In this document: positions 38,701 through 41,700 of the stretch, piece after piece
Layout: the number at the start of each line of letters is the position of its first letter
Position numbering within the stretch: the first letter of the stretch is position 1
Assembly: GCF_057098645.1 (NCBI RefSeq)
Contig: NZ_CM169472.1
Direction: 5' to 3' (one strand)
DNA: 64,000 bases
Position numbers: made by a program

Positions 38701-41700
38701 CATTTATATGGCTTCATTTGTTGTAATCTGCTGCGTCTCAAGGGATATGTTTATGAGAGCGACCATGAGTGTTTGATTATATACCTAACATATCAAGGGA
38801 TTAGAAATCGATAAATCCCCATGAACGAAAAAATAAAATACGGCCTGTCGGCTGCCGTTCTGGCGCTGATTGGTGCAGGTGCTTCTGCGCCTGAAATCCT
38901 CGACCAGTTTCTGGATGAAAAGGAAGGTAACCACACCACGGCATACCGTGATGGTGCGGGGATCTGGACCATCTGCCGTGGTGCCACCCGGGTGGATGGT
39001 AAGCCTGTTATTCCTGGCATGAAGCTGTCAAAGGAAAAATGCGACCGGGTTAATGCCATCGAACGTGACAAGGCGCTGGCATGGGTGGAGAAAAACATCC
39101 GGGTGCCGCTGACCGAACCCCAGAAAGCGGGGATCGCGTCATTCTGTCCGTACAACATTGGCCCCGGTAAGTGCTTCCCGTCGACGTTTTATAAACGAAT
39201 TAATGCAGGCGATCGAAAAGGTGCCTGTGAGGCGATTCGCTGGTGGATTAAGGACGGTGGCAGAGACTGCCGTATCCGTTCAAATAATTGCTACGGTCAG
39301 GTCTCACGGCGTGACCAGGAGAGCGCGCTGGCGTGCTGGGACATCGACAGATAGCAGAATATTTTCCTGAAAAATGACGTTGGCCAACGCGGGTGGATAA
39401 CACGAAATCCTGAAAACTGGTAAAACCTAAGTGAATAAAAGTAAAAACCCCGTTTGTTGGCAGCAAGCGGGGTTTTGTGTTTTCTGACCTTGAGTAAGGC
39501 AAGGGAGAAATTATGGGTAGGGAGGTACTTTCCCTGTGAGGAAGTATAAAAGATTCTTTCTGAGGTTGTCCATTATGAAAGGCATTGAAGTGGAGACGCC
39601 AGCCAGTCTGGATTTAACAAGAGCGGCTGAACCGCCCCGGGTTTCCTGGAGAGTGTTTTATCTGTGAACTCAGGCTGCCAGATCATCGTTTCCGATGGAA
39701 GCATAATAAGCTTTTTCTGCTTCTGCCGGAGGAGTATGGCCCAGCCTTTCCAGCAATCGTCGATTGTTATACCAGTCCACCCACGTGAGTGTGGCCAGTT
39801 CCACTTCTGCACGGTTTTTCCAGCTCTTACGGTGTATTACCTCCGCTTTGTAAAGACCATTGATGCTCTCCGCCATCGCGTTGTCATACGAGTCGCCTGT
39901 ACTTCCTGTTGATGCCAGTAATCCGGCTTCCTTAAGCCGCTGTGTGTAGGCCAGCGATACATACTGAGAACCTTTATCACTGTGATGGACCGTGCCGGAC
40001 GGTCGACGGGCCCATAACGCCTGCTCCAGTGCATCCAGCACGAATGTCGTCTCCATGGACGATGAGACCCGCCACCCCACAATGTATCCGGCAAACACAT
40101 CAATGATGAACGCCACATAGACGAAGCCCTGCCATGTGCTGACGTAAGTAAAATCAGCCACCCACAGCTGGTCAGGTCGTTCTGCCACGAACTGACGGTT
40201 TACGCGGTCGCCTGCGGCAACGGCTTTCCGGCTGATGGTCGTACGGACCTTTTTACCCCGGAGAACACCGGCAAGTCCCATAACCGCCATGAGACGTGCC
40301 ACAGTGCATCTGGCCACTCTGATACCTTCCCGTAACAACTGACGCCAGACTTTACGCACACCGTATACCTTGTGATTTTCATCGTATACGCGCTGTATCT
40401 CTTTCTTCAGCCAGTCATCGCGCTGCGCACGGGCACTGCGTTTATCCGGATGATGTCGCTGTTGCTGACAGTGGTAATACGTTGACGGGGCAATATGCAG
40501 TTCGCTGCATAGCGGTCCGACCCCGTACTGCTCACGCAGCTTATCCAGCAGTGGCATCATTTTTTCCAGAGGCGGTCGAACTCCGCCTTCGCAAAATAAG
40601 CGGAAGCCTGGCGAAGGATATCGTTACTGCGGCGCAGTTCACGATTTTCACGCTCCAGCTCTTTCAGACGCTGACGTTCAGCGGTGGTGAGCCCTCCATC
40701 ACCGCCCCCGGTATCCCGCTCATGCTGGCGAACCCAGACACGCAGAGTCTCCGGCGTACAGCCAATCTTTGGAGCAATGGAACAAATTGTCGCCCATTGT
40801 GAGTCATATTCGCCCTGACTTTCCAGAACCATACGGACTGCCCGTTGACGGACTTCAGGGGAAAAACGAGTATTTTTAGTCATCCTGTTTACCTCTTTCT
40901 CAGGAAGTTTAGTCTCCAGGATTCCCGGGGCGGTTCAGGCAGCTTTTGCCATTCGTATTGTGGCCATTGCTGTTCTGGTCTGGGCAATCCGTTGGTGGTG
41001 ATATGAACCGTGTTCTGTGCGTGGTTATCATTGTCCTGCTGGTGGCCTGTGGTGCGCTTAGTCTGGGGCTGAATCATTACCGTGATCACGCCATCATCTA
41101 CAAAGAGCAGCGCGATAAAAAAGCCAGTGAGCTGGAGCTGGCGAACGCGACAATTACTGATATGCAGATACGCCAGCGTGATGTCGCTGCACTTGATGCC
41201 AGATACTCGAGGGAATTAGCCGATGCGAGAGCTGAAAATGAAACTCTGCGTGCTGATGTTGCCGCTGGTCGTAAGCGCCTGCGCATCAACGCCAACTGTC
41301 CAGGCTCCTTGCGTAAAGCCCCCATCACCTCCGGCGTGGATAATGCAACCGGTCCCCGACTGGCAGAAGCCGCTGAACGGGATTATTTCATCCTCAGAGA
41401 ACGGCTGATGGCAATGCAGAAGCAACTGGAAGGAGCACAGGAATATATCCGTACCCAGTGTATACCGTGATGTTTTGTTATGAAGGTGTTACTGGTAACG
41501 TTAAGGTAATTTAACAAAGAGTCAGTTCCGGACTTTATAGTGTGCTCAGTTCATGGCCAAAAACGATTTCTGTGATAAATATTTTGAATATTATTTACAG
41601 GTAAATGGAGTGGGGCACATGGATAGAAATATTACAATAGAGAATGAAGTATATGCCCGTATTGTATGGGCAGAGAAGGCAAAAACACGGTAATTCCGTG

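What the first reader, a model, noticed from the sequence alone, without database searches (positions are those of the whole stretch)
39355..41002. IS629 inserted between endolysin and Rz, inside an unusually long spacer
IS629 (1310 bp, TSD GGC) sits between R and Rz. Even without the IS the R-Rz spacer is about 336 bp and contains a hairpin/T-run element, whereas these genes normally abut. The IS may have destroyed a small gene or a regulatory element and should be polar on Rz/Rz1. IS629 is characteristic of the O157:H7 lineage, which hints at strain background.
Basis: partly seen in the sequence, partly recalled or inferred. Interest (0 to 1): 0.45.

Follow-up and report, generated by a model that had tools for sequence, protein, structure and literature searches.

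The report
IS629 splits small gene before Rz
A mobile element (IS629) has landed inside a tiny, conserved, uncharacterised membrane-protein gene that sits just before the last lysis genes of a dormant virus in an E. coli O145:H28-type chromosome. The insertion is ordinary prophage decay, but the small gene it destroys is real and unstudied.

Summary
An intact 1,310-bp IS629 lies at 39628-40937, flanked by a 3-bp GGC duplication. Without it, R stop to Rz start is 335 nt and contains a strong hairpin with a T-run at 39444-39476.

- **The spacer is not unusual.** All 78 measurable relatives carrying this endolysin type have 297-1,197 nt between R and Rz.
- **The spacer is not empty.** Removing the IS restores a 37-codon ORF (50 codons from a GTG start). 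It has a C-terminal transmembrane helix and ends 1 nt before the Rz ATG. It matches phrog_4493 (unknown function) and is annotated as hypothetical in IS-free genomes. Between clades it shows 16-18 synonymous versus 4 non-synonymous codon changes.
- **The IS cuts this ORF before the helix**, so the guess that it destroyed a small gene is correct.
- **Polarity on Rz/Rz1 is plausible but untested.**
- **The O157:H7 inference fails.** The chromosomal flank is 100% identical to O145:H28 genomes, and the IS differs by 4% from the O157-type copy.

Beyond the finding, three unrelated families of small hydrophobic ORFs occupy this slot just before Rz. IS629-type elements hit it repeatedly. A conserved minus-strand promoter-like site facing the hairpin hints at an antisense RNA.

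The parts
37927..38133 (+). S, phage-21-type class II holin (pinholin), 68 aa
   Evidence: PF04971, E=1.3e-32
38821..39354 (+). R, lysozyme-type endolysin with an N-terminal signal-arrest-release-like segment, 177 aa
   Evidence: PF00959, E=1.4e-24. The E-x8-D-x5-T motif and the Gly/Ala-rich N-terminus were read from the translation.
39444..39476 (.). Terminator-like hairpin flanked by an A-tract and a T-tract, readable on both strands
   Evidence: 15 pairs plus a T-run, about -20 kcal/mol. A hairpin is kept at this position in all contexts, with compensatory changes: CCCCG..CGGGG, CCCCGG..CCGGGG, CCCCAG..CTGGGG.
39543..39572 (-). Sigma-70-like promoter match TGGACA-18 nt-TATACT pointing towards the hairpin. 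It predicts a roughly 100-nt antisense RNA (39536 to about 39436). Hypothetical.
   Evidence: Matches 10 of 12 consensus positions. Kept at 9-10 of 12 in all family-A contexts. The predicted RNA folds with z=-3.5. Not shown to be active.
39536..39627 (+). 5' fragment of the disrupted small ORF (GTG start at 39536, ATG start at 39575). It now reads into the IS, giving ...TRAA-EPPRVSWRVFYL* without the transmembrane helix.
   Evidence: The 50-aa form matches phrog_4493 over positions 1-54 of 56, E=1.4e-24.
39625..39627 (.). Left copy of the GGC target-site duplication
   Evidence: empty site seen in L089
39628..40937 (-). IS629 (IS3 family), intact, with its transposase antisense to the late operon
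40938..40940 (.). Right copy of the GGC target-site duplication
40941..41001 (+). 3' fragment of the small ORF (transmembrane helix AFAIRIVAIAVLVWAIRWW plus stop). It contains the Shine-Dalgarno-like GGTGGTGA for Rz.
   Evidence: PGAP marks the same fragment as a pseudogene in CEC13002.
41003..41470 (+). Rz, inner-membrane spanin, 155 aa, intact
   Evidence: PF03245, E=2.8e-46
41223..41408 (+). Rz1, outer-membrane lipoprotein spanin embedded in Rz, 61 aa, intact
   Evidence: PF06085, E=4e-19

Best explanation
**Shown**
- An intact IS629 transposed into the middle of a real, conserved small gene, duplicating GGC at the target.
- That gene lies between the endolysin gene R and the spanin genes Rz/Rz1 of a lambdoid prophage. 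The prophage is integrated next to yccA in an O145:H28-type chromosome.
- The 335-nt 'spacer' is a standard two-part module of this lysis-cassette lineage. It has a terminator-like hairpin just after the endolysin gene, then an ORF of 37 codons (50 from an upstream GTG).
- The ORF encodes a protein with a basic and acidic N-terminus and a C-terminal transmembrane helix. Its stop codon is 1 nt from the Rz ATG.
- The IS cuts the ORF after codon 18 of 37. The helix is lost and the product is a 43-residue soluble fusion counted from the GTG start.

**Inferred**
- The allele is null.
- Rz/Rz1 keep their own ribosome-binding site. They lose any translational coupling and now lie behind 1.3 kb of antisense IS. 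Their expression after induction is probably reduced rather than abolished, because Q-modified polymerase reads through terminators.
- The small protein is most likely an accessory late (lysis-cassette) membrane protein made together with the spanins. I put this at roughly 40%. Its exact role is unknown.
- The insertion is one step in the decay of a pch-carrying prophage.
For: - **Anatomy of the IS and empty site:**
- **The ORF is restored and recognised.** It reappears when the IS is removed and is annotated in IS-free genomes. It matches phrog_4493 at E=1.4e-24.
- **Coding signature.** Between clades there are 16-18 synonymous versus 4 non-synonymous codon changes. One variant has an in-frame 3-nt deletion. 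Substitutions in the helix are conservative. For sister family A', pN/pS is 0.15 in frame and above 1.2 in the other frames.
- **A slot rule.** In 75 of 78 loci a 28-49-aa hydrophobic ORF ends 1-7 nt before Rz. The two exceptions among the 46 distinct spacers (three loci) are frameshifted copies.
- **Family A is tied to the downstream gene, not the endolysin.** It travels with three different endolysin types. It is always 1 nt upstream of Rz or of a 60-aa lipoprotein.
- **Decay context.**
  - F3113 and Z1323CEC0019 have IS-adjacent deletions starting at this site.
  - RM9872, with the same prophage, has another IS629 in the 3' end of Rz and a 4-nt deletion in the small ORF.
  - A second IS (IS21 family) lies at 33772-35741.
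Against: - No function is known for any of the small-ORF families. There were no hits in Pfam, NCBIfam or PADLOC.
- No expression data exist. A Sakai ribosome-profiling supplement lacks these peptides.
- The start codon is unresolved. One variant (L092) breaks the GTG-extended frame.
- Polarity and coupling were not measured.
- Family B is under weaker constraint, with pN/pS of 0.53.
- Frameshifted copies exist, so the gene is dispensable in prophages.
Confidence: 0.8

Rival explanations
1. The small ORF and a cis-antisense RNA form a type-I-toxin-antitoxin-like or 'lysis safety' module. A constitutive RNA of about 100 nt starts near 39536 on the minus strand and ends at the bidirectional hairpin. 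It pairs with the leader and ribosome-binding site of the small-ORF mRNA and blocks leaky translation of a membrane-active peptide in lysogens, and through coupling also blocks Rz. The IS destroys the peptide gene but leaves the antisense unit.
For: - The minus-strand site TGGACA-18-TATACT is kept in all family-A contexts despite about 20% divergence in the ORF body.
- The 39 nt around it diverge 8-10% versus 20-22% in the body. Fisher p is 0.017-0.11 for synonymous codon changes.
- A hairpin with T-runs on both sides lies 60-100 nt downstream on the minus strand in every context.
- The predicted RNA folds into three stem-loops with z=-3.5.
- The peptide is small and hydrophobic, like type I toxins.
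Against: - No Rfam family matches on either strand.
- The peptide matches no known type I toxin family in Pfam.
- The promoter count in the region is not above chance: 5 found versus 6.7 expected.
- Conservation of the block is also compatible with coding of the N-terminal extension, or with an mRNA leader.
- No separate plus-strand promoter for the peptide was found.
- The -35 hexamer is degraded in family A'.
Confidence: 0.18
2. The small ORF is a lysogeny-expressed 'moron' unrelated to lysis, for example a superinfection-exclusion or membrane-modifying peptide. Its position next to Rz merely reflects a permissive recombination junction.
For: - The R-Rz interval is a mosaic hot spot. It holds different small ORFs and antirepressor genes in different relatives.
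- The flanking sequences (the first 85-155 nt after R and the GGTGGTGATATG linker) look like shared recombination linkers.
Against: - No plus-strand promoter lies between the hairpin and the ORF.
- The ORF sits downstream of a terminator, so it should be silent without antitermination.
- Three unrelated families share the same size, hydrophobicity and 1-7-nt spacing to Rz. This argues for a position-linked function.
Confidence: 0.15
3. One reading: the IS sits in a long non-coding or regulatory spacer, so apart from polarity it is silent.
For: The hairpin and T-run element is real and was left intact by the IS.
Against: The insertion point is inside an ORF with a clear coding signature and a PHROG family match. 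Annotators mark the remnant as a pseudogene.
Confidence: 0.05

Closest known systems
IS629/IS1203 insertions in prophages of enterohaemorrhagic E. coli (Rump et al. 2011, PMC3271280)
   Same: Same element family, 1,310 bp, 3-4-bp target duplications. Most copies lie in prophages. Sub-types differ by 4-5%.
   Different: This copy is the sub-type shared with O145:H28, O39 and E110019 rather than the main O157:H7 (IS1203-like) sub-type. The paper reports no sequence-specific target. Here at least four independent insertions fall within 23 nt.
Phage 933W lysis region: S-R-ant-Rz/Rz1 (NC_000924.1)
   Same: Same holin, endolysin and spanin types. There is a long R-Rz interval with a post-R hairpin and a small hydrophobic ORF directly before Rz.
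   Different: 933W carries an antirepressor gene plus a family-B small ORF, which is unannotated in the reference record. The window carries only a family-A ORF, now split by the IS.
Phage P2 lysA, a membrane protein gene between endolysin K and spanins lysB/lysC (from my own knowledge, not tested here)
   Same: An accessory membrane-protein gene occupies the slot between the endolysin and the inner-membrane spanin. It is reported to affect lysis timing.
   Different: LysA is about 141 aa with several transmembrane segments. No sequence similarity was tested or expected. This is an analogy of position only.
Type I toxin-antitoxin loci such as hok/sok, symE/symR and ibs/sib (from my own knowledge)
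   Same: A small hydrophobic peptide gene whose 5' region faces a convergent promoter-like site and a terminator that could yield a cis-antisense RNA.
   Different: No homology to known toxin families. No dedicated toxin promoter. The antisense RNA is only predicted.

Membership tests
IS629 (IS3 family) | About 1.3 kb with terminal inverted repeats ending 5'-TG...CA-3' | tested here: met
   1,310 bp. The 26-nt arms are 92% complementary and begin TGAACCGCCCCGGG.
IS629 (IS3 family) | Two overlapping transposase frames (HTH orfA and DDE/rve orfB) with a -1 frameshift signal | tested here: met
   PF01527 and PF00665/PF13276. RF01497 pseudoknot at 120 bits.
IS629 (IS3 family) | 3-4-bp target-site duplication verified against an empty site | tested here: met
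   GGC is present twice in the window and once in L089.
IS629 (IS3 family) | Near-identity to a curated IS629 copy | tested here: met
   100% identity over 1,310 bp to the feature 'IS3 family IS629' in LC567824. 96% identity to the O157-type copy that PGAP names the IS1203 family.
Pinholin / SAR-endolysin / two-component spanin lysis cassette (phage 21 type) | Class II holin, lysozyme with an N-terminal SAR-like segment, Rz with embedded Rz1 lipoprotein | tested here: met
   PF04971, PF00959, PF03245 and PF06085. The lipobox LVVSAC in Rz1 was read. SAR function itself was not tested.
phrog_4493 (phage protein family, unknown function) | Significant full-length match to the family profile | tested here: met
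   The 50-aa form scores E=1.4e-24 over profile positions 1-54 of 56. The 37-aa form scores E=5.5e-16.
Type I toxin-antitoxin system | Small hydrophobic toxin homologous to a known family (Hok, Ldr, Ibs, TisB and others) | tested here: not met
   No Pfam or NCBIfam hit at E<=1.
Type I toxin-antitoxin system | Antisense RNA gene with its own promoter and terminator overlapping the toxin mRNA | tested here: inconclusive
   There is a conserved minus-strand promoter-like site plus a bidirectional hairpin. No transcript evidence exists and Rfam is negative.
Type I toxin-antitoxin system | Toxicity of the peptide and rescue by the RNA | not testable with these tools
   Needs expression experiments.
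Holin / antiholin | Match to a holin family profile | tested here: not met
   Only PHROGs of unknown function match. No Pfam holin family matches.
Holin / antiholin | Membrane protein encoded in the lysis cassette that changes lysis timing | not testable with these tools
   The position and a transmembrane helix are present. The timing phenotype needs experiments.
Moron (promoter-gene-terminator insert) | Own promoter upstream of the inserted gene | tested here: not met
   No plus-strand sigma-70-like site lies between the hairpin and the ORF in four contexts. The consensus scan is a weak test.

The most novel reading that the evidence does not exclude
The interval between the endolysin and spanin genes in this large group of enterobacterial lambdoid prophages, including Shiga-toxin phages such as 933W, may be an unrecognised functional slot. 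Three features support this:
- It always holds a terminator-like hairpin followed by one of at least three unrelated families of 28-60-aa single-helix membrane proteins.
- The last of these ends 1-7 nt before the spanin gene.
- In family A it comes with a conserved antisense promoter.

These peptides would be new accessory lysis regulators acting on spanins or holins, or antisense-controlled membrane toxins. IS629-type elements knock the slot out repeatedly during prophage domestication.
Probability: 0.3. Interest if true: 0.6.

Novelty: new member of a known kind. Interest (0 to 1): 0.35.

Why it matters
**As stated, the finding is routine.** It is an IS in a decaying prophage and changes nothing conceptually. 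The strain inference drawn from it was wrong.

**The target is the useful part.**
- Lysis cassettes of Shiga-toxin and related phages contain conserved small membrane-protein genes directly before Rz. Reference annotations such as 933W omit them and nobody has characterised them.
- If they tune lysis timing or spanin action, they would affect phage and toxin release from pathogenic E. coli.
- IS-disrupted, frameshifted and intact natural alleles already exist, which gives a ready-made panel for testing.

**Recurrent insertions.** Repeated IS629-family hits within 23 nt, with adjacent deletions removing Rz, pch and packaging genes, show how this site seeds prophage decay.

Tried and rejected
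- **Rfam**, both strands of 36500-43500 at E<=1: only the IS3 frameshift pseudoknot matched. The hairpin and spacer match no known RNA family.
- **Pfam, NCBIfam and PADLOC** on all small-ORF families: no hits.
- **Literature.** Exact peptide strings and WP_000675931 occur in no paper. The Sakai ribosome-profiling supplement has none of these peptides. Reviews of Stx-phage lysis cassettes and prophage sRNAs do not describe this interval.
- **Plus-strand promoter for the small ORF:** none found.
- **Exact insertion elsewhere.** No complete RefSeq E. coli genome or phage record holds this IS sub-type at this site. The three genomes sharing a junction carry the O157-type IS, and two of them are shifted by 1 nt.
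- **Joined multi-piece hits** were artefacts. They paired the spacer with a nearby IS copy.
- **O157:H7 origin** was rejected after the backbone search.
- **Not pursued:** structure prediction and fold search, which are uninformative for a single helix of about 50 aa.
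Full report
**1. Checking the observation**

- **Flanking genes.** R (177 aa, PF00959) is at 38821-39354. Rz (155 aa, PF03245) starts at 41003, and Rz1 (PF06085) is embedded at 41223-41408. The reported interval 39355-41002 is exactly the gap between them.
- **The IS.**
  - It occupies 39628-40937 (1,310 bp) and begins TGAACCGCCCCGGG. Its 26-nt terminal inverted repeats are 92% complementary.
  - Both transposase frames lie on the minus strand. orfA is 40883-40557 (PF01527) and orfB is 40560-39670 (rve, PF00665). The IS3-type frameshift pseudoknot scores 120 bits.
  - It is 100% identical to a copy annotated 'IS3 family IS629' in LC567824.
- **Target duplication.** GGC flanks both ends. 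The nearest IS-free relative, Z1323HEC0399, has a single GGC in AAGAGCGGCAGC, so the duplication is verified against an empty site.
- **Spacer and hairpin.** Without the IS the spacer is 335 nt. The hairpin at 39444-39476 has 15 pairs followed by a T-run and folds at about -20 kcal/mol.

**2. The spacer is not empty**

- **The restored ORF.**
  - Joining 39627 to 40941 restores MKGIEVETPASLDLTRAAAFAIRIVAIAVLVWAIRWW*. This is 37 codons from the ATG at 39575, or 50 codons from the GTG at 39536.
  - The stop codon at 40999-41001 is 1 nt from the Rz ATG.
- **Annotation.** NCBI's pipeline (PGAP) annotates this ORF as a hypothetical protein, WP_000675931.1, in O157:H7 TR01 and O104:H4. It marks the right-hand remnant as a pseudogene in CEC13002.
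- **Family match.** The 50-aa form matches phrog_4493 (unknown function) over the whole profile at E=1.4e-24. The 37-aa form scores 5.5e-16. No Pfam, NCBIfam or PADLOC family matches.
- **Coding signature.**
  - Between the two main clades there are 16-18 synonymous and 4 non-synonymous codon changes in the 37-codon body.
  - One variant has an in-frame 3-nt deletion.
  - Protein variants show conservative I/V/L/A exchanges in the helix.
  - In sister family A', pN/pS is 0.15 in frame and at least 1.2 in the other frames.
- **Effect of the IS.** It cuts after codon 18. The remaining reading frame runs into the IS (...TRAA-EPPRVSWRVFYL*) and lacks the hydrophobic C-terminus.

**3. The long spacer is normal for this lineage**

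- In K-12, R and Rz overlap or abut in the prophages DLP12 and Qin.
- Of 80 IMG/VR loci encoding an R at least 94% identical to this one, every measurable case (78) has 297-1,197 nt between R and Rz.
- The interval is a mosaic:
  - Family A is the window's type. Its relative A' matches phrog_1115.
  - Family B is a 43-49-aa ORF (phrog_4906).
  - Family C/D matches phrog_6632.
  - Some loci also carry an antirepressor gene (PF10547 or PF03374).
- Phage 933W has R-ant-Rz. The 153-nt unannotated gap before its Rz encodes a family-B ORF, MISDKLITLVKSLCVLVGISFLVMLVAIFFSTAWRVLTLSGLVG.
- In 75 of 78 loci a 28-49-aa strongly hydrophobic ORF ends 1-7 nt before the Rz ATG. The two exceptions among the 46 distinct spacers (three loci) are frameshifted copies.
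- Family A also occurs with two quite different endolysins, GH108 and Peptidase_M15_4, and with other holins. It is still exactly 1 nt upstream of Rz, or of a 60-aa lipoprotein (phrog_7528) that takes the place of Rz. The small ORF therefore travels with the downstream outer-membrane lysis gene, not with the endolysin.
- A terminator-like hairpin follows the endolysin gene in every class. Its sequence differs between classes and its pairs change in a compensatory way.

**4. Likely consequences (inference)**

- The small-protein allele is null.
- Rz and Rz1 are intact. They keep 62 nt of native upstream sequence, including GGTGGTGAT before the ATG.
- The scan finds no strong plus-strand terminator inside the IS and no outward promoter towards Rz.
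- By established knowledge of lambdoid late transcription, Q-modified polymerase resists terminators. I therefore expect reduced Rz/Rz1 expression rather than none, through loss of translational coupling and a long untranslated antisense stretch. This was not tested.
- The site also seeds larger damage.
  - F3113 has an IS at the same left junction joined directly to the large terminase gene.
  - Z1323CEC0019 has an IS joined to the head protease gene.
  - Each has lost Rz and Rz1, the PerC-family gene and the small terminase gene; F3113 retains the large terminase gene, while Z1323CEC0019 has also lost the large terminase and portal genes.
- In O145 strain RM9872 the same yccA prophage has a 4-nt deletion in the small ORF and a different IS629 in the last codons of Rz.
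- The window carries a second IS (IS21 family) at 33772-35741. Together these show a prophage in decay that retains a PerC-family regulator gene (41936-42250, PF06069).

**5. Strain background**

- The chromosomal flank, window 1-11400 (yccS-helD-ompA), is 100% identical to many O145:H28 genomes.
- The window's IS is 100% identical to copies in O145:H28, O39:NM, E110019 and VR50. It differs at 52 of 1,310 positions from the copy typical of O157:H7, which PGAP names the IS1203 family.
- Rump et al. (PMC3271280) describe IS629 sub-types that differ by 4-5%.
- The right arm of the prophage is closest (99.3%) to Korean human isolates and 97-98% to O103:H2 and O45:H2 strains.
- The O157:H7 hint is not supported.

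**6. A recurrent target**

At least four independent IS629-family insertions, all with the transposase antisense to the late operon, fall within 23 nt of this ORF:

| Event | Position | IS type |
|---|---|---|
| Window | after GAGCGGC, duplication GGC | O145-type |
| F3113 | same position | O157-type |
| CEC13002 and Z1323CEC0019 | 1 nt to the left, duplication CGG | O157-type |
| IMG/VR contig L014 | after CATTCGTAT | a third sub-type |

- Fusion peptides in the protein database point to further events.
- Two loci have the IS inside the ant gene of the same interval.
- I cannot separate target preference from selection with these data.

**7. An unexplained feature**

- A minus-strand sigma-70-like site, TGGACA-18 nt-TATACT (39572..39543, 10 of 12 matches), is retained in all four family-A contexts.
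- The 39 nt around it diverge 8-10% between clades, against 20-22% for the ORF body. Fisher p is 0.017-0.11.
- It faces the bidirectional hairpin. The predicted RNA of about 100 nt folds into three stem-loops with a terminal terminator, z=-3.5. It would be antisense to the leader and ribosome-binding region of the small ORF.
- This resembles type I toxin-antitoxin loci or antisense-controlled leaders.
- Against it: the promoter count in the region is not above chance. The conserved block could instead encode the N-terminal extension or an mRNA leader. Rfam has nothing here. I rate this model at about 0.18.

**8. Verdict**

- The insertion is an ordinary, strain-specific IS629 event in a decaying prophage of an O145:H28-type genome. 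No complete RefSeq genome or phage record has this sub-type at this site.
- What lies underneath is more interesting than the IS: a conserved, uncharacterised slot for small membrane proteins directly before the spanin genes.
- I score interest at 0.35 and novelty as a new member of a known kind.

Noticed in passing
window 33772-35741: An IS21-family element lies between the tRNA cluster and the SASA-esterase gene, at the position where stx genes sit in Shiga-toxin phages. It has a 390-aa IstA-like transposase (phrog_1157) and a 266-aa IstB/DnaC-like helper. It is a second IS upstream of the lysis genes.
   Followed up: partly
window 38389-38703 (minus strand): A reverse-oriented ORF (104 aa here, 90 aa in PGAP as WP_000138558.1) separates S from R by about 690 bp. 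It matches phrog_1853 (unknown function), E=3.5e-47. S and R normally overlap in phage-21-type cassettes.
   Followed up: no
window 37845-37871: A strong terminator-like hairpin (11 pairs plus TTTTTTGTTTT) lies between the SASA esterase gene and S. A 2026 preprint (10.64898/2026.05.13.724894) places the prophage sRNAs PasA and PasC at this position. Identity with a Pas sRNA was not checked.
   Followed up: no
L090 (phage 933W NC_000924.1) record 27435-27569: The reference annotation of 933W leaves a 153-nt gap between ant and Rz. The gap encodes a 44-aa family-B hydrophobic ORF ending 7 nt before Rz.
   Followed up: yes
L098-L101, locus 3116-3298: In prophages with a Peptidase_M15_4 endolysin, the family-A ORF is followed 1 nt later by a 60-aa predicted lipoprotein rather than Rz. 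It has the lipobox LLVGC and matches phrog_7528 (unknown function). It may be an alternative outer-membrane lysis factor.
   Followed up: partly
L261 (O145 RM9872) locus 24675-26493: This is the same yccA prophage as the window. Its small ORF carries a 4-nt deletion, and a different IS629 copy in the opposite orientation truncates the last codons of Rz.
   Followed up: yes
L086 (F3113) and L088 (Z1323CEC0019): An IS at or 1 nt from the window's insertion site is joined on its other side to the large terminase gene or to the head protease gene. These are IS-adjacent deletions of Rz/Rz1, the PerC-family gene and packaging genes.
   Followed up: partly
window 39510-39538: Family A differs from A' by a 25-nt insertion. 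It creates an 8-codon mini-ORF (ATGGGTAGGGAGGTACTTTCCCTGTGA) whose stop overlaps the GTG start of the 50-codon form, plus a small stem AGGGA...TCCCT over the GGGAGG motif. Its significance is unknown.
   Followed up: no
window 41553-41693: A 46-aa ORF downstream of Rz matches phrog_2157 (unknown function) over its full length, E=2.7e-37. PGAP does not annotate it in the relatives examined.
   Followed up: no
window 40938-40964: Two insertion points fall in or beside two small overlapping palindromes of the target, GGCAGCTTTTGCC and GCCATTCGTATTGTGGC. These are the window's site and the L014 site. This may relate to the recurrent targeting.
   Followed up: no
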